Assembly (NCBI GenBank): GCA_028716045.1
Contig: JAQUQO010000001.1
Location: 725,176-789,175, forward strand
DNA length: 64,000 nucleotides
Direction: 5' to 3'
Source: Patescibacteria group bacterium
GTDB lineage: Bacteria; Patescibacteriota; Patescibacteriia; JAQUQO01
Shown here: piece by piece, positions 7,284-11,274 of the stretch
Layout of the letters: each line of letters begins with the position of its first letter
Numbering within the stretch: the first letter of the stretch is position 1
Made by a program: the position numbers and the translations under genes
The notes under the pieces: generated by a model
Told to the model about the DNA's origin: nothing
The model's input: only the letters and a program-made list of their open reading frames with translations
Databases searched by the model: none

Positions 7284-7846
7284 TTTTGGGGCAAGGCTTA
7301 GAAATGTCCGAATGTACAAAAAATCGTGGAATCGGTAGATTTTAAGACACTCTTGATATCGCCCCGTTGCCGAAGGGAGGTTCTTCCTTCATCTTTTTTT
7401 CTTTCTCTTGTCTGTTTTTTGGTCTGATTGACAATTGGCAGATACTCTATCTGTGCTACTTACTAGTCGTTCACCTTACATACCTCCTTTCAATTTTGAG
7501 GGTAATTATTGGGATTTTTATAGGTCCTTCCCCAACCTCCATAGAGAAGGACCTACTTATTCCCTTAAAATTTAGTCAGGCATAACACCCTCCTTTGTTA
7601 CTGGTTGACTAAATACACCGCTATTCTTTTAAAATAACAAAATTACTGCTGGCTCCTATATTATCATATGTCTTATATATTGTCAATAGTGGTTGACAAA
7701 GGCCTGTGGATAACTTTTTAAAAATACCCCGTAAAAAATTATTATTTTCTATAAATGTCATAAAAAAATAACAATATTATGAGCTTTATTTTTAGCTTAA
7801 ATTAGCCAAAAAATTAAATAATATTTATAAATTAAGTCAGGGGGGC

Positions 7847-7875
7847 TTGACAAATTTTTTAGGGTGTGTTATAGT
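7847..7875 (+). promoter_or_regulatory. consensus sigma70-like promoter (TTGACA-17-TATAGT) driving an ORF-free transcript
   Basis: TTGACA at 7847-7852, a 17-nt spacer, TATAGT at 7870-7875. A TTAGCTTAAATTAGCCAAAAAA element and a DnaA-box 9-mer lie upstream. Confidence 0.6.
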
Positions 7876-7881
7876 GGTGCT

Positions 7882-8365
7882 ATCAGTTGTCGAAGTTCCT
7901 TAAAACTAAATTTAAAAAATTCTGACAAGCACCGGGATAAGGGTAAAAACTTCCCAAAATATTGTATTCCAACGGCCCCCTACGGCCTTGGGATATTACT
8001 CTTCCTTTTATGGAGAGTGCCCATGCTTGTTACTAGGGGCTACCACCCCCGGTGTTTGTCAGAATCTAAAATTTTTGCACAGTTTGGGGTAGTGTAGGAG
8101 CCGGTTACTTCGACTAAAAAGAGATAACCAATTTGTTGCTTAGCCATCCTCCGTTTAAGGAAGAAAATGGCTAAACGCAATTTGCTTTGCAATATGCTGA
8201 AGTAAATTGTGGCGGAATGAAAGTTCCACCTCTGCTCTGCGCGAAAGTGTAAAGCAGGGGCCAAAGCGATACGGCGCCGCGGCAAGCACCGACCCCGCCT
8301 CTTCTCCCCAAATTGAGCAATTTTACATGCCCGACGATAATTATTTCGTCGGGCTCCTTTCTCAA
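7882..8365 (+). ncRNA. candidate structured non-coding RNA (putative Y-RNA-like partner of the adjacent Ro60/Rsr)
   Basis: There is no credible ORF or RBS in this stretch. An 18-bp helix pairs 7919-7936 (ATTCTGACAAGCACCGGG) with 8048-8065 (CCCGGTGTTTGTCAGAAT) and encloses internal hairpins. A 9-bp GCCCGACGA...TCGTCGGGC hairpin at 8330-8357 is followed by a U-rich tract. The transcript lies immediately 5-prime of rsr. Confidence 0.45.
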
Positions 8366-8539
8366 GTCAGAAACTTATCCGGCTTGAGAAAGGGGCTTGG
8401 TAGTGTAGATAAGGGATACTTCGGATATCGGTTTCTATTTAAGCATTGCCCTTGTCACTTTTTCTCCAGGAACCTTGTAATTTGATAACACAAAACTGCC
8501 GTCTGATAAATATCGGACTGGTGTAAGGAGGGAATTTAA

Positions 8540-10252
8540 ATGAAGCAAAACGTAAAAGCCACAGTAGCTGAACAGTTTGCTAACCGTTCTGACGCCGTAG
8601 AAAATTATGAAGGCGGACTTGCGTTTACGCTTGAACCGTGTTCAAAACTCTATACGCGCGTTTGCTCCTCGCTCGCGGGTGAGGACAAATTTTACACCAA
8701 TGGGAAAACTGTGGACTCGGAACTTCTTACTGACATTCAGGAAGCCGCGAAAGTGAATCCAGAATTCATACTCCGGCTTGCCGCCTACGCCCGTCAGAAA
8801 ATGAACATCCGGTCAACTCCCATCGTTCTTCTCGCTGAAGCTGCAGCTCTGCCTGCCTGTAAACCATTTGTGCGCCGTTGGGCTCCGGAAATCATCCGCC
8901 GAGCGGATGAACCCGCCGAAGTCATTGCCTACTGGGTAAAACGGCACGGTCCCATTGGTTCGCACGGTACAGCTGGTGGTGAACATGCTTTCCCAAATTC
9001 TCTTTCTCGGGGGATTGGGGACGTGCTTGAGCGTTTTGACGAGTACCAATTCGCTAAATACGACAGGAATAACTGCGCAATTTCATTGCGCGACGTCCTT
9101 CGCATTGTGCGCCCTACTCCGAAAACCGCCGAATGCTCCGCTCTCTACCGGTATCTGGTGTCGGGTCAGGTTGACTCGCAACTTCTTCCCAAACTTGCCG
9201 CCAAAGCAGAACTTATGCGCAAGCAGGAGTTTAACGCCGAGGCGCGTGAGCTTATAACCAAAGCTCACGCCACCTGGGAAGTGGTAATTTCCAAATTTGG
9301 CTCACGAGCTGAAGTTTGGAATGAAATCAACTTGTCCTTCATGGCTGGCCTGCGGAATCTTCGCAATCTCCTTGAAAAAAACGCTGACCAAGCGCTTGCT
9401 CAAGTGATTGCTATGCTCCGCGACGCTGAACACGTGAAACGGTCGAGGCAATTGCCTTCCCGCTTCTACTCAGCATACCGAGCCATCACTCCGTACGAAA
9501 GCGGGCGTTGTATGTGCTACGAACAGCAAACTGAAGAAAGCGACAAGGTCGCCAATCATCCCATGGTCAATGCGGCGCGTGAGGCGATTTTGCAGGCGTT
9601 GGCGTCGTCAGTAGTGAATTTGCCGCGGCTTTCGGGCCGCACATTCATCACCGCCGACAACTCTGGCTCAATGCAGACGCCCATCTCCGCCAAGTCCACG
9701 GTATGCCGTCGCGACATCGCGAACCTACTTGCTGCCATTGCCCACACCATGTGCGACGAGGCAATCTGCTCTGTGTTTGGAACACACCACAAGGTGGTGC
9801 CGGTTGTTCGGGAGGACTCCATCCTCACGAACATGGACCGGCTCGCTAACACAGACGTAGACCACTCGACAAATGCCTACCTGGCGGTTAAGCATTTGCG
9901 CGAGACAAGGACCCGGGTTGACCGGATTATCCTTTTCTCGGACATGCAATGCTACGACCTCGAGGCTCGCAACAATGGTTACTGGTGCGAATCAGGCCAA
10001 TCGCTTACCGAAGAACTGCATAAGTACCGCAGTACAGTGAATCCCCAAGTACATCTTTACTCGGTGGACCTTGCTGGCTACGGCACAGCGCAATTCCCGC
10101 AAAGCGACCGGCGCGTAGCGCTCCTTGCTGGCTGGTCTGAACGGCTCTTGGAGTTCATTCCGCTTTTTGAGCAGGACAAAGTCCAGGCAGTTGAACAAAT
10201 TGCCAAATGGATGCCTTCTGCCAAAAACAGAGCTAGCAGGGAAACGGCCTAA
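8540..10252 (+). CDS. rsr: Ro60-related protein Rsr (TROVE domain + vWA domain with MIDAS motif)
   Basis: RBS AAGGAGGG precedes the ATG. The N-terminal part aligns by eye to Ro60 TROVE segments (EGGLAF..., AGEDKFYT, RNNCAISLRDVLRIVRP versus human RNGWSHKDLLRLSHLKP). The C-terminal part carries a DxSxS MIDAS motif (ITADNSGSM) and a later FSDMQ motif. The gene is GC-rich. Confidence 0.75.
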   Translation: MKQNVKATVAEQFANRSDAVENYEGGLAFTLEPCSKLYTRVCSSLAGEDKFYTNGKTVDSELLTDIQEAAKVNPEFILRLAAYARQKMNIRSTPIVLLAEAAALPACKPFVRRWAPEIIRRADEPAEVIAYWVKRHGPIGSHGTAGGEHAFPNSLSRGIGDVLERFDEYQFAKYDRNNCAISLRDVLRIVRPTPKTAECSALYRYLVSGQVDSQLLPKLAAKAELMRKQEFNAEARELITKAHATWEVVISKFGSRAEVWNEINLSFMAGLRNLRNLLEKNADQALAQVIAMLRDAEHVKRSRQLPSRFYSAYRAITPYESGRCMCYEQQTEESDKVANHPMVNAAREAILQALASSVVNLPRLSGRTFITADNSGSMQTPISAKSTVCRRDIANLLAAIAHTMCDEAICSVFGTHHKVVPVVREDSILTNMDRLANTDVDHSTNAYLAVKHLRETRTRVDRIILFSDMQCYDLEARNNGYWCESGQSLTEELHKYRSTVNPQVHLYSVDLAGYGTAQFPQSDRRVALLAGWSERLLEFIPLFEQDKVQAVEQIAKWMPSAKNRASRETA

Positions 10253-10261
10253 CAATGTTTT

Positions 10262-10312
10262 AAAAGGGAGATTCAATTCAAAATTGTCTCTCCCTTCTTT
10301 TCTCCTGCCCCG
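10262..10312 (+). terminator. rho-independent terminator after rsr
   Basis: AGGGAGA...TCTCCCT stem followed by a T-rich tract. Confidence 0.5.
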
Positions 10313-10663
10313 CAACTTAGTTTTGCGAGACAGAAGAAAGAGTTATTGTTGTGTCAATTATAAACAACCCTAACCTTTAAACGCGGTTGATAGACGTGTA
10401 GCTATCAACTTGTCTGCCCGGGGCGCGGCCAAAAACCACTATTGGAGCGCTCTAATAGTGGGCATCGCCCGGGAAGACGCCCGCCCTTTTTTGTGAAATT
10501 TATCGCCAAAGAGCGAGGGGCGGAGTGAGAGCGGAAGTTATATATCTCAGCAAAGAGCGCGAACTCTTTGTTGGGCCGCAATCACCCCGAAGGCGTTTCG
10601 CGATGACCTCCGGACTGCACAAATTTTTTGCTTTGTTAAAAACAATTAATCTAAGGAGGTGTC

Positions 10664-10846
10664 ATGTCTAAGCCTTGGGATATCACAAAGGAAGAAGCTA
10701 TTGCAGCAGGAGAGCGAAAGCGCAAACGTCGTGAAGCCGCAGATCGCGAAGATGCGCCGCTCTTAGCCAGAATGCTTGCTGAAAACGAGGAATTCATTAC
10801 CGAAGTGGTAAGAGCACACAAAACAACTCAAGAAGGACAACTGTAA
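10664..10846 (+). CDS. small basic hypothetical protein (60 aa)
   Basis: Strong RBS TAAGGAGGTG precedes the ATG. The translation has a KRKRR stretch. The gene lies in the high-GC island between rsr and a structured RNA candidate. Confidence 0.45.
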   Translation: MSKPWDITKEEAIAAGERKRKRREAADREDAPLLARMLAENEEFITEVVRAHKTTQEGQL

Positions 10847-10854
10847 AAGGATAA

Positions 10855-11190
10855 GGTGGGTGGTTATGCGCAGCCATCTATCTACTCAAACTTGCCGCAT
10901 GGGCTAAGGTAGTAATCATTGCCCCGTTCTTAGGGGACAGTAATCGTTACCTTACTTGAAATGACGGCAGGGGGTCCTATGGGGTAACACCATAGAGTGG
11001 CAATGTAATCAGCTAGAATTTGCGGCGTACTAATGTACGTCAACAAAGTCGCTGTACCGGTTGCCGGAGGACCGTGAATCCAACGCCGGGCATACGCCAC
11101 ACCCAGATACGCTTCGGGATAAAATTCACGGCAAGCGTTCTGGGGCTGCACAAATTTTAAAACCCACCATAATACGGCGGGTTTTTTAAT
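10855..11190 (+). ncRNA. candidate structured non-coding RNA (second rsr-adjacent RNA)
   Basis: No ORF with an RBS. Terminal pairing GGTGGGTGG (10855-10863) with ACCCACC (11162-11168), plus internal pairings such as CCGTGAAT/ATTCACGG. The region ends in an AACCCACC...GGCGGGTTTTTT terminator-like hairpin. Confidence 0.35.
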
Positions 11191-11198
11191 ACAAATAC

Positions 11199-11227
11199 TT
11201 GACAAAATTTTGACTCTGTTATAATAT
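11199..11227 (+). promoter_or_regulatory. sigma70-like promoter (TTGACA - TATAAT)
   Basis: TTGACA at 11199-11204, a 16-17-nt spacer, then TATAAT/ATAATA. Confidence 0.5.
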
Positions 11228-11274
11228 CTGAAGATGCTTAAATGTTCTTTAAACAACGGAGGTATAAGTGAATA

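What the first reader, a model, noticed from the sequence alone, without database searches (positions are those of the whole stretch)
7300..11260. Compositionally foreign high-GC island carrying rsr, a small basic protein and structured RNAs
- By eye, GC rises from the ~40% background to roughly 55% across 8.5-11.2 kb.
- The island is bounded by AT-rich promoter regions containing the recurrent TTAGCCAAAA element and a DnaA-box 9-mer.
- Two other isolated GC-rich genes (2972-3496 and 42818-43474) show the same contrast.
- This suggests recent horizontal acquisition, although no integrase or repeat boundary is visible.
Basis: seen in the sequence. Interest (0 to 1): 0.5.

Follow-up and report, generated by a model that had tools for sequence, protein, structure and literature searches.

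The report
Ro60 gene with its Y RNAs
The GC-rich stretch is a Ro60 (rsr) gene preceded by two structured "Y RNA" genes, a known RNA quality-control module, sitting in a variable slot of a candidate-phyla-radiation (Patescibacteria) genome. It is probably an accessory cassette, but its GC-richness is a trait of this gene family and does not show recent transfer.

Summary
**Observation:** confirmed. Window 8.0-11.0 kb has 0.48-0.54 GC against 0.435 overall. It is the most deviant non-rRNA stretch in tetranucleotide content (z about 4). rsr has the most atypical synonymous codon choice of 49 ORFs (z -5.9).

**What it is:** a Ro60/Rsr-Y RNA operon.
- Promoter at 7847-7875.
- A conserved leader, "RNA X" (7880-8076).
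- Two Y RNAs: Y1 (8080-8315) and Y2 (8390-8476).
- rsr (8540-10252).
- Two unexplained structured regions flanking a 60-aa ORF.

**Evidence for the Y RNAs:**
- A covariance model of the shared core has compensatory changes in 13 of 16 pairs.
- It hit 44 times in 68 loci chosen only for carrying Ro60. All hits lie on the rsr strand and nearly all within about 1 kb upstream of rsr.
- Neither window RNA has the tRNA-like domain of YrlA. Y1 instead carries a roughly 190-nt domain conserved in a few Patescibacteria.

**Origin:**
- The closest relatives share the flanks (pilB-trmB ... tsaE), the promoter and RNA X, but lack rsr. So it is an accessory cassette, and its left edge is about 8077, not 7300.
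- "Recent" is unsupported. The best Ro60 match is 66% identical.
- rsr is GC-richer than its surroundings in 67 of 75 loci from many phyla.

The parts
7705..7713 (-). DnaA-box 9-mer TTATCCACA upstream of the operon promoter (native backbone, not part of the cassette)
   Evidence: Exact match. The block CTGTGGATAACTTTTT is conserved in relative L193.
7802..7811 (+). TTAGCCAAAA element, 35 nt upstream of the -35 hexamer (native backbone)
   Evidence: 7 copies in the window against 0.6 expected. Five of them lie just upstream of TTGACA promoters. It is conserved as TTAGCTAAAA in L193.
7847..7875 (+). Sigma-70-type promoter TTGACA-17-TATAGT with a TG extension; proposed start of the X-Y1-Y2-rsr transcript
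   Evidence: 11 of 12 consensus positions, the best in the region. Conserved in L193. Transcription itself is inferred.
7880..8076 (+). RNA X: conserved structured leader, closed by an 18-bp stem (7919-7936 with 8048-8065)
   Evidence: Inverted repeat 94% complementary. nhmmer matches to L193 1449-1639 (E 1e-7) and L192 10462-10543 (E 0.004), where no rsr was found. 7 pairs show compensatory changes in a 3-sequence alignment. No Rfam match.
8080..8315 (+). Y1: large Y RNA. P1 is 8080-8087 with 8308-8315. The bulged helix is G8088 G8089 (U8090 bulged) A8091 G8092 with C8304 U8305 C8306 C8307. P2 5' strand is 8098-8104. UUACUUC is 8105-8111. A roughly 190-nt apical domain follows, with no tRNA-like arms.
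   Evidence: Exact core motif. All architecture elements found. Full-length nhmmer match to the RNA just upstream of rsr in L001 (E 4e-9). In the 5-sequence consensus fold, 27 of 47 pairs show compensatory changes. Fold z -4.7. No tRNA or Rfam hit.
8329..8354 (+). GC-rich hairpin with a pyrimidine tail between Y1 and Y2 (terminator-like or processing signal)
   Evidence: Terminator-like site with 9 pairs, 7 of them G-C. Function is inferred.
8390..8476 (+). Y2: short Y RNA (YrlB-like). Core motif 8399-8408, P2 8409-8415 with 8449-8455, AUACUUC 8416-8422, UUCUCC 8462-8467.
   Evidence: Model R1 hit at 8396-8470, 45.3 bits, E 4e-10. It was not in the seed alignment.
8540..10252 (+). rsr: Ro60 orthologue (570 aa), TROVE domain plus vWA domain with DxSxS; Shine-Dalgarno AAGGAGG at 8525-8531
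   Evidence: Pfam TROVE E 2.8e-31, and vWA_Ro60 just below its cut-off. 1771 homologues, the best non-self 66% identical. D373, S375 and S377 are invariant in 35 sequences. PDB TROVE entries 9l5y and 9kop at E 1e-23.
10264..10296 (+). Hairpin followed by a pyrimidine tract just after the rsr stop (likely terminator)
   Evidence: Inverted repeat I16, 87% complementary. Present in the minimum-energy fold.
10380..10610 (+). D1: GC-rich structured non-coding region of unknown function
   Evidence: Fold z -5.3 for 10253-10663. No ORF, no Rfam match. No homologue in about 190 fetched loci.
10664..10846 (+). 60-aa ORF with a strong Shine-Dalgarno; member of a small uncharacterised family sharing a roughly 45-aa N-terminal domain
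   Evidence: 16 homologues at E <= 1e-3 among 1.84 billion representatives, the best 70% identical. No Pfam or NCBIfam family. pI 5.8.
10847..11190 (+). D2: GC-rich structured non-coding region ending in an intrinsic-terminator-like hairpin plus U6 (about 11162-11188)
   Evidence: Fold z -5.4. No Rfam match. No homologue found. The terminator was read from the sequence.
11199..11227 (+). Promoter of the next, AT-rich gene (11275-11592); right edge of the GC-rich block
   Evidence: 10 of 12 consensus positions. GC falls to 0.355 at 11100-11299.

Best explanation
The GC-rich block is a Ro60 (Rsr)-Y RNA ribonucleoprotein operon.

**Proposed mechanism**
- A strong promoter at 7847-7875 drives one transcript: a conserved structured leader (RNA X), then a large Y RNA (Y1), a short Y RNA (Y2), and the rsr mRNA. 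The Y RNAs would be cut out of this precursor, as described for Mycobacterium smegmatis.
- Each Y RNA has a terminal stem that continues into an invariant helix with one bulged pyrimidine (GG-Y-AG paired with CU-CC). After an internal loop comes a second stem followed by UUAC/AUAC. By analogy with animal and bacterial Y RNAs, this module is where the Ro60 ring binds.
- The variable apical part would recruit a partner. In Deinococcus and Salmonella that partner is the exonuclease PNPase, and the complex degrades or matures structured RNA under stress.
- Here neither Y RNA has the tRNA-like domain of YrlA. Y1 carries instead a roughly 190-nt domain conserved in a few Patescibacteria.

**Origin**
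- The unit from about 8077 to about 11190 is a cargo cassette in a variable slot between a conserved trmB-promoter-leader unit and tsaE.
- It was most likely gained by lateral transfer at some point, but not demonstrably recently.
- Its high GC is mainly a family-wide property of rsr and of structured RNA genes.

**Shown here:** gene identity; RNA architecture with covariation; strand- and position-specific association with rsr; the compositional deviation; absence of rsr from the slot in relatives.

**Inferred:** co-transcription and processing; Ro60 binding; the effector; the direction and date of transfer.
For: **Gene identity**
- TROVE and Ro60-type vWA domains; conserved DxSxS.

**RNA core**
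- The motif GGYAGYGTAG-N5-RGNTACTTC occurs twice upstream of rsr.
- In a metagenome scan, 42 of 120 loci carrying the motif had a Ro60 gene in the fetched DNA, always on the same strand.
- In the 63-nt core alignment of 29 copies, 94% of cells are paired and 13 of 16 pairs show compensatory changes. The covariation score is 0.93, against 0.23 for shuffles and at most 0.20 for slid controls.
- The bulged helix is invariant in 28-29 of 29 copies.
- Model R1 hits Y2 at E 4e-10.
- In 68 loci chosen by Ro60 protein alone, R1 gave 44 hits. All are on the rsr strand and nearly all within 1 kb upstream, across at least six phyla.

**Y1**
- Homologous over its full length to the RNA next to rsr in L001. 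The consensus fold is supported by 27 of 47 compensatory pairs.

**Match to published YrlA**
- Location within 4 kb on the same strand, a stem formed by the ends, and YUAY after the 'anticodon' stem (PMC4201824; bioRxiv 10.1101/312249).
- Many metagenomic copies carry T-arm, acceptor-like hairpin and D-arm at the apex of P2.

**Cassette status**
-.

**Composition**
- for the window. for the family-wide GC excess.
Against: - No expression or binding data exist for this organism.
- The published 5' motif GNCGAAN0-1G is not literally present. The equivalent position reads GYGUAG.
- Rfam has no model that matches, so membership rests on architecture and context.
- R1 did not hit two phage Ro60 loci. 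A Salmonella YrlA fragment could not be located in the available collections for a direct test.
- Model R1 alone does not align Y1 correctly because of its 190-nt insertion (11 bits).
- The seed copies were chosen by requiring at least 6 of 7 pairs per stem, which inflates the percentage paired, though not the compensatory changes or the unbiased test.
- No PNPase gene lies in the window, and the rest of the genome was not available.
- Gain cannot be separated from ancestral presence with losses. The Ro60 divergence (66%) is about what a protein of this rate would show at the organismal distance to other orders (RpoB plateau 72-76%).
Confidence: 0.75

Rival explanations
1. A recently acquired foreign genomic island. 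The block came in lately from a GC-richer donor and has not yet ameliorated.
For: - The strongest compositional deviation outside the rRNA: tetranucleotide z about 4, codon choice z -5.9.
- Absent from the syntenic slot of the closest relatives.
- The nearest Ro60 homologues sit in GC-richer Patescibacteria.
Against: - The best homologue is only 66% identical, and no near-identical donor exists among 5.8 billion proteins.
- rsr is GC-richer than its host in 67 of 75 loci, even in hosts of 0.61-0.63 GC where rsr reaches 0.70-0.71. The offset is therefore not a transfer signature.
- RecA in this window is as GC3-rich as rsr.
- No integrase, tRNA target or flanking repeats.
- The cassette is driven by the native promoter and leader.
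Confidence: 0.1
2. An ancestral, vertically inherited rsr-Y RNA locus that was lost in the sampled relatives. The GC-richness is purely intrinsic: structured RNAs plus gene-specific codon and amino-acid bias.
For: - Star-like Ro60 identities of 54-68% among all related Patescibacteria, compatible with the organismal distances implied by the RpoB plateau of 72-76%.
- A TrmB-family regulator followed by a long non-coding gap precedes rsr in 6 other distinct related loci: L001 (same stretch as L006), L002, L004 (L005), L008, L013 and L014.
- In the closest relative, L193, the sequence after RNA X weakly resembles the 5' part of Y1 (about 22 of 34 positions). This could be a decayed Y RNA.
- The GC excess is family-wide.
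Against: - The TrmB next to rsr in the other clade is a different subfamily (31% identity). Within that clade TrmB tracks Ro60 (41-81% against 62-88%), so the window's TrmB-rsr adjacency is not the same inherited arrangement.
- No rsr was found at the slot in any of four relatives, which have unrelated cargo there. L193, however, is only a 3.8-kb contig.
- R1 finds no Y RNA in them.
Confidence: 0.3
3. The conserved elements upstream of rsr are not free-standing Y RNAs. They are cis-acting leader structures (attenuators, or autoregulatory Ro60-binding sites) of the rsr mRNA.
For: - They lie in the 5' untranslated region on the same strand, with one promoter upstream and a terminator-like hairpin between them.
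- RNA X is a leader that also precedes other genes in relatives.
Against: - In several loci the same module lies downstream of rsr (L098, L112, L124, L174, L183), or in arrays of 2-4 copies (L010, L086, L182).
- Many copies enclose a complete tRNA-like domain like the experimentally characterised YrlA.
- In M. smegmatis the upstream Y RNAs are processed from a precursor and bound by Rsr (PMC4201824).
Confidence: 0.1

Closest known systems
Bacterial Ro60 (Rsr) with Y RNAs YrlA/YrlB (Salmonella Typhimurium, Mycobacterium smegmatis) and Yrn1/Yrn2 (Deinococcus radiodurans); Chen et al. 2013, 2014
   Same: - A Ro60 orthologue with TROVE and vWA domains.
- Two non-coding RNAs on the same strand within 1 kb upstream, apparently in one transcription unit.
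- Each RNA is closed by a stem formed by its ends, followed by a conserved recognition module, a second ('anticodon-like') stem and a YUAY-type sequence.
- One long and one short RNA per locus.
   Different: - The 5' recognition sequence reads GG-Y-AG-Y-GUAG rather than GNCGAAN0-1G.
- Neither RNA in the window has T- and D-arm mimics. The long RNA carries a different conserved domain of about 190 nt, shared with L001, L008, L013 and L105.
- The host is a Patescibacteria (CPR) genome, a group for which I found no published Y RNA description.
- No rtcBA genes are adjacent.
Metazoan Y RNAs (hY1, hY3, hY4, hY5; Xenopus Y3-Ro60 structure, Stein et al. 2005)
   Same: A terminal stem containing an invariant short helix with a single bulged pyrimidine, followed by an internal loop and a variable effector module. 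This comparison rests on my own knowledge of the metazoan helix GGUCCGA/UUGACU with its bulged C.
   Different: The helix sequence differs, the RNAs are larger, they are made from a bacterial sigma-70 promoter in an operon with the protein gene, and there is no 3' oligo-U/La site.
Classical genomic islands (integrase-borne, tRNA-targeted)
   Same: Compositional deviation and presence/absence polymorphism among relatives at a fixed chromosomal slot.
   Different: No integrase, no tRNA target, no flanking direct repeats. The cargo is expressed from a resident promoter and leader. The compositional offset is shared by orthologues in all hosts.

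Membership tests
Ro60 / Rsr (TROVE family) | TROVE (HEAT-repeat ring) domain | tested here: met
   Pfam PF05731, E 2.8e-31, 109.6 bits against a cut-off of 23. PDB TROVE proteins at E 1e-23.
Ro60 / Rsr (TROVE family) | C-terminal von Willebrand A domain with a DxSxS metal site | tested here: met
   PF25045 vWA_Ro60 at 26.9 bits, just under its cut-off of 27.7. D373, S375 and S377 are invariant in 35 homologues.
Bacterial Y RNA (YrlA type) | Encoded within 4 kb of rsr on the same strand | tested here: met
   Y1 and Y2 lie 64-460 nt upstream of rsr on the + strand. R1 gave 44 of 44 hits on the rsr strand in 68 Ro60-selected loci.
Bacterial Y RNA (YrlA type) | Long stem formed by pairing of the 5' and 3' ends | tested here: met
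   7 of 9 P1 pairs show compensatory changes in 29 copies. Y1 P1 is 8080-8089 with 8306-8315.
Bacterial Y RNA (YrlA type) | GNCGAAN0-1G motif near the 5' end (putative Ro60 contact) | tested here: not met
   The equivalent position reads GYGUAG (AGUGUAG in both window copies). A literal GUCGAAG at 7889-7895 lies in RNA X and is not part of the covarying module.
Bacterial Y RNA (YrlA type) | Conserved YUAY directly after the 'anticodon-like' stem | tested here: met
   UUAC (Y1, 8105-8108) and AUAC (Y2, 8416-8419). The UAC of this motif is invariant or nearly so in the 29-sequence alignment.
Bacterial Y RNA (YrlA type) | tRNA-like domain with T-arm, acceptor-like hairpin and D-arm | tested here: not met
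   No tRNA or tRNA-like hit in 7000-11700 with Rfam at E <= 10 or with ARAGORN, and no GGUUCGA-type T-loop. Related loci do have it.
Bacterial Y RNA (YrlB / Yrn2 type, no tRNA-like domain) | Second, shorter Ro60-associated hairpin RNA next to the long one, carrying the same recognition module | tested here: met
   Y2 is about 85 nt with the R1 core at 45.3 bits. The short-plus-long pair recurs in L001, L008 and L105.
Bacterial Y RNA (any type) | Physical binding to Rsr and Rsr-dependent accumulation | not testable with these tools
   Needs immunoprecipitation or Northern blots in an uncultured organism, or in vitro binding.
Horizontally acquired genomic island | Composition and codon usage deviating from the host | tested here: met
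   Tetranucleotide z 3.8-4.2; codon choice z -5.9. The same offset is family-wide, however.
Horizontally acquired genomic island | Absent from the syntenic position in close relatives | tested here: met
   L192, L194 and L195 lack rsr downstream of trmB. L192 shares the full pilB-trmB ... tsaE backbone. These relatives are only moderately close (RpoB at most 84%).
Horizontally acquired genomic island | Mobility signatures: integrase, tRNA target, flanking direct repeats | tested here: not met
   No such ORF, tRNA or repeat around 7.2-12.3 kb.
Horizontally acquired genomic island | Recent transfer: a near-identical copy elsewhere | tested here: not met
   Best non-self Ro60 is 66% identical. 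Phage copies are at most 31% identical.

The most novel reading that the evidence does not exclude
A clade of Patescibacteria has replaced the tRNA-like effector domain of the long Y RNA with a different, conserved structured domain of about 190 nt (window Y1 8105-8297, shared with L001, L008, L013 and L105). This implies that Ro60 in these reduced genomes is tethered to a partner other than the one recognised through tRNA mimicry. In addition, the cassette is plugged behind a conserved promoter-leader unit (RNA X) that drives different cargo in different relatives, which would be a regulatory 'socket' not described so far.
Probability: 0.3. Interest if true: 0.55.

Novelty: new variant of a known kind. 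Interest (0 to 1): 0.4.

Why it matters
- Ro60-Y RNA particles are a conserved RNA surveillance machine. In bacteria they are understood from only three species.
- This locus extends the system to the candidate phyla radiation.
- It gives a compact, covariation-supported model of the Ro60-binding module (a bulged helix), which Rfam lacks.
- It shows a long Y RNA whose effector domain is not a tRNA mimic.
- As a caution for genome scans: a GC-rich, codon-atypical gene is not necessarily a recent import. rsr is GC-enriched relative to its host almost everywhere.

Tried and rejected
1. **First pairing model.** I first paired GUCGAAG (7889-7895) with CUUCGAC (8108-8114), and CUGAAGUA (8198-8205) with UACUUCGG (8417-8424), giving two 230-nt RNAs. 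I also read GUAG...UAC as a D-arm mimic. I rejected this once many copies showed the closing stem lying just outside GGYAGYGUAG and UUCUCC, with strong covariation.
2. **Rfam.** No Y RNA/YrlA-type match in the window at E <= 10, nor in 20 related loci at gathering score, where only tRNA hits overlap or abut the motif. Nothing in the relatives L192-L195.
3. **Direct test against Salmonella YrlA.** The published 80-nt fragment found no match in the E. coli genome or plasmid collections.
4. **R1 on two phage Ro60 loci.** No hit, so the module is not universal among Ro60 loci.
5. **Downstream regions D1 and D2.** Homologues were sought with blastn and nhmmer in about 190 loci. None were found, so their structure cannot be tested by covariation.
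6. **Genomic context of two homologues of the 60-aa protein.** The contigs were too short to be informative.
7. **The 105-aa ORF downstream.** It looked shared with L002, L004 and L194 by length alone, but tblastn found no similarity.
8. **The two similar promoters (7846-7859 and 11198-11211).** I rejected them as insertion-generated repeats. They match the general promoter consensus CTTGACAAA seen elsewhere in the window.

Full report
**1. Observation**

The window averages 0.435 GC.
- One-kb windows from 8001 to 11000 reach 0.48-0.54.
- At 200-nt resolution the rise runs from about 8100 to about 11190, with a peak of 0.585.
- The only long ORF there, 8540-10252, has GC 0.532 and GC3 0.569. 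The means over 50 ORFs are 0.438 (sd 0.041) and 0.456 (sd 0.068).
- Tetranucleotide distance makes 8001-11000 the most deviant non-rRNA stretch (z 3.8-4.2; the 16S region scores 4.7).
- A synonymous-codon likelihood test makes this ORF the most atypical of 49 (z -5.9).

Some details need correcting:
- TTAGCCAAAA (7802-7811) and the DnaA box (7713-7705, minus strand) occur only on the left side.
- The 60-aa protein is not basic; its pI is 5.8.
- RecA in the same window is about as GC3-rich as rsr.

**2. What is encoded**

The ORF is a Ro60/Rsr orthologue, with a TROVE domain at E 2.8e-31, a Ro60-type vWA domain and an invariant DxSxS. It is named a TROVE protein of a Patescibacteria MAG.

Gene-free DNA flanks it, and all of that DNA folds far better than shuffled controls:
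- 7222-8539 upstream, where 7878-8539 has z -8.0.
- 10253-10663, z -5.3.
- 10847-11274, where 10847-11190 has z -5.4.

Rfam and ARAGORN find nothing there.

**3. The upstream RNAs are Y RNAs**

A motif, GGYAGYGTAG-N5-RGNTACTTC, occurs at 8088 and 8399. It recurs on the rsr strand upstream of rsr in related Patescibacteria loci.

An exact-pattern scan of metagenomes returned 120 loci. Of these, 42 carried a Ro60 gene in the fetched DNA, always on the same strand and mostly 100-700 nt downstream of the motif.

Reading the copies side by side gave one architecture:
- a closing stem, P1;
- GG-Y-AG-Y-GUAG;
- a 7-bp stem, P2, followed by UUACUUC;
- a variable apex;
- the return strand of P2;
- CG-N4-UUCUCC;
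- the return strand of P1.

A gap-free 63-nt core alignment of 29 copies was analysed:
- 94% of cells are paired.
- 13 of 16 pairs show compensatory changes.
- The covariation score is 0.93, against 0.23 in shuffles and at most 0.20 when partners are slid.
- GG-(Y bulged)-AG pairs with CU-CC in 28-29 of 29 copies and never varies. This is a sequence-specific bulged helix, the kind of element Ro60 recognises in animal Y RNAs. That comparison rests on my own knowledge of Green 1998 and Stein 2005, as cited in PMC4201824.

The covariance model R1 built from this alignment was then tested:
- It hit Y2 (8396-8470), which was not in the seed, at 45.3 bits and E 4e-10.
- In an unbiased test on 68 loci fetched only by Ro60 protein similarity, it gave 44 hits at E <= 0.05. 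All are on the rsr strand and nearly all within 1 kb upstream.
- Those hits come from Patescibacteria, Sericytochromatia, Cyanobacteria, Verrucomicrobia, Chloroflexota (Nitrolancea), Myxococcota and Desulfobacterota.

The layout matches published YrlA: a Ro60-binding module, an 'anticodon-like' stem, a conserved YUAY, then T-arm, acceptor-like hairpin and D-arm (PMC4201824; bioRxiv 10.1101/312249). Many metagenomic copies do carry T- and D-arms at the apex of P2, and Rfam's tRNA model hits them. The complement of the published M. smegmatis YrlA 5' probe (UUACCACUUCUAAUGGAAUGG) resembles the same position in L152.

**4. The two window RNAs**

- **Y2 (8390-8476)** is a short hairpin-type Y RNA, comparable to YrlB/Yrn2.
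- **Y1 (8080-8315)** has every core element but an apex of about 190 nt with no tRNA-like features.
- Y1 is homologous over its full length to the RNA just upstream of rsr in L001, whose Ro60 is the closest homologue (nhmmer E 4e-9).
- With L008, L105 and L013 it gives a consensus fold in which 27 of 47 pairs show compensatory changes.
- Other close relatives (L142, L185, L190, L107; Ro60 51-71% identical) keep a tRNA-like YrlA. The large domain is therefore a clade-specific replacement.

**5. Transcription unit (inferred)**

- The best promoter match in the region (7847-7875, 11 of 12 positions with a TG extension) precedes everything.
- The first roughly 200 nt form RNA X, closed by an 18-bp stem.
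- A terminator-like hairpin lies between Y1 and Y2 (8329-8354).
- rsr has a strong Shine-Dalgarno, and a hairpin plus pyrimidine tract follows its stop codon.

This matches the M. smegmatis arrangement, where YrlA and YrlB lie upstream of rsr and are processed from one precursor (PMC4201824).

**6. Origin**

Relatives were found through the flanking TrmB-type regulator.
- L192 (TrmB 64%, PilB 65%, TsaE 51%) shares the backbone pilB-trmB ... tsaE but has unrelated genes in the slot.
- L194 shares trmB and tsaE around its slot. L195 shares only trmB. None of the three has rsr in the slot.
- R1 finds no Y RNA in these relatives.
- The intergenic region, DnaA box, TTAGCCAAAA element, promoter and RNA X are conserved in L193 and L192, with compensatory changes in the RNA X stem.
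- The native unit therefore ends at about 8076. The cassette is about 8077-11190. The AT-rich genes at 11275-12247 are also slot-specific.

In the other Patescibacteria a TrmB-family gene also precedes the Y RNAs and rsr. It belongs to a different subfamily, 31% identical to the window's TrmB. Inside that clade TrmB identity (41-81%) tracks Ro60 identity (62-88%). The window's TrmB-rsr adjacency is therefore not the same inherited arrangement. This favours gain of the cassette.

Several facts argue against "recent" and against using GC as evidence:
- The best Ro60 is 66% identical and the identity matrix is star-like.
- RpoB has relatives at 82-84% and then a plateau at 72-76%. A Ro60 divergence of 57-66% is therefore compatible with order-level vertical distances.
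- rsr exceeds the rest of its locus in GC in 67 of 75 loci. The excess is +0.08 to +0.18 in the related clade across hosts of 0.35-0.63 GC, mostly through GC3.

Hence the GC excess is largely intrinsic to rsr. The flanking RNAs are GC-rich in the same way the rRNA is in this genome. I put gain at some unknown time at roughly 0.55-0.6, ancestral presence with losses at about 0.3, and truly recent import at about 0.1.

**7. Unexplained parts**

- D1 (10380-10610) and D2 (10847-11190) are strongly structured, but no homologue was found in any fetched locus.
- The 60-aa ORF between them belongs to a small family sharing a 45-aa N-terminal domain of unknown function.
- Why rsr is GC3-enriched nearly everywhere is not explained.

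**8. Verdict**

This is a known kind of system (Ro60 with Y RNAs) in a phylum where I found no description of it. It has a variant recognition sequence and a long Y RNA whose effector domain is not a tRNA mimic. As a "foreign island" it is an accessory cassette of uncertain age. The compositional argument for recent transfer does not hold.

Noticed in passing
window 7880-8076 (+); L193 1449-1639; L192 10462-10543: RNA X is a structured leader of about 150-200 nt, closed by an 18-bp stem with compensatory changes. It is conserved downstream of the trmB-type gene in three relatives and precedes different cargo in each: Y RNAs plus rsr here, and a 179-aa ORF in L192. It has no Rfam match. It could be a riboswitch-like or processing element.
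   Followed up: partly
window 7232-7655 (-), promoter 7686-7658 (-): A divergent promoter (TTGACA-17-TAATAT with TG) faces a 420-nt ORF-free, purine-rich minus-strand region that folds with z -4.2 and ends at the bidirectional trmB terminator. It contains a strong Shine-Dalgarno (7595-7588) followed by a 3-codon mini-ORF, ATG-CCU-GAC-UAA (7583-7572). L193 keeps the same arrangement (ATG-GAA-GAC-TAA).
   Followed up: partly
window 2791, 2856, 7802, 51300, 51395 (+); 19494, 30008 (-): The 10-mer TTAGCCAAAA occurs 7 times against 0.6 expected. The five intergenic copies lie 5-100 nt upstream of strong CTTGACAAA promoters, twice as pairs, and one is conserved in L193. It is probably a transcription-factor site or UP-like element. 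One pair precedes the GC-rich ORF 2945-3496.
   Followed up: partly
window 51000-51500: A cluster of DnaA boxes in the most AT-rich part of the window (GC 0.35), together with two TTAGCCAAAA elements: perfect TTATCCACA at 51365, and one-mismatch copies at 51329, 51464(-) and 51012(-). It lies upstream of rpoB. It is a possible replication origin or DnaA-regulated region. The cumulative GC skew shows no turning point there.
   Followed up: no
window 10253-10663 and 10847-11190 (+): Two GC-rich, ORF-free regions with fold z -5.3 and -5.4 flank the 60-aa ORF. The second ends in a clean intrinsic terminator (about 11162-11188). No Rfam match, and no homologue in about 190 loci.
   Followed up: partly
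window 10664-10846 (+): The 60-aa ORF belongs to a tiny uncharacterised family: 16 hits among 1.84 billion representatives. The family is defined by an N-terminal domain of about 45 aa, MPKPWE-x-T-x-EEA...ADR...PLLARQLAE, which is sometimes duplicated within one protein. It is acidic to neutral overall, not basic.
   Followed up: partly
window 2945-3496 (+) and 42818-43552 (-): The two other GC-rich ORFs (GC 0.558 and 0.525; codon-choice z -4.3 and -2.9) have no Pfam or NCBIfam family. RecA (56929-57957), a core gene, is similarly GC3-rich, so high GC3 alone does not mark foreign genes in this genome.
   Followed up: partly
75 Ro60 loci (L001-L191): rsr is GC-richer than the rest of its locus in 67 of 75 loci from many phyla (mean +0.04, up to +0.18), mostly through GC3. 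No explanation was found.
   Followed up: partly
L193 1640-2397: In the closest relative, the conserved promoter and RNA X are followed by about 750 nt of GC-rich (about 0.50) DNA. Only an implausible minus-strand ORF is called there, and there is no Rfam match. It may be another large non-coding RNA cargo, or a decayed Y RNA locus.
   Followed up: no
L102 3400-5700; L126 1800-2150: Some Ro60 loci sit next to dense tRNA gene arrays: 17 tRNA hits in 2.3 kb in L102. This fits the known link between Ro60/Y RNA modules, tRNA-like RNAs and mobile or phage-like regions.
   Followed up: no
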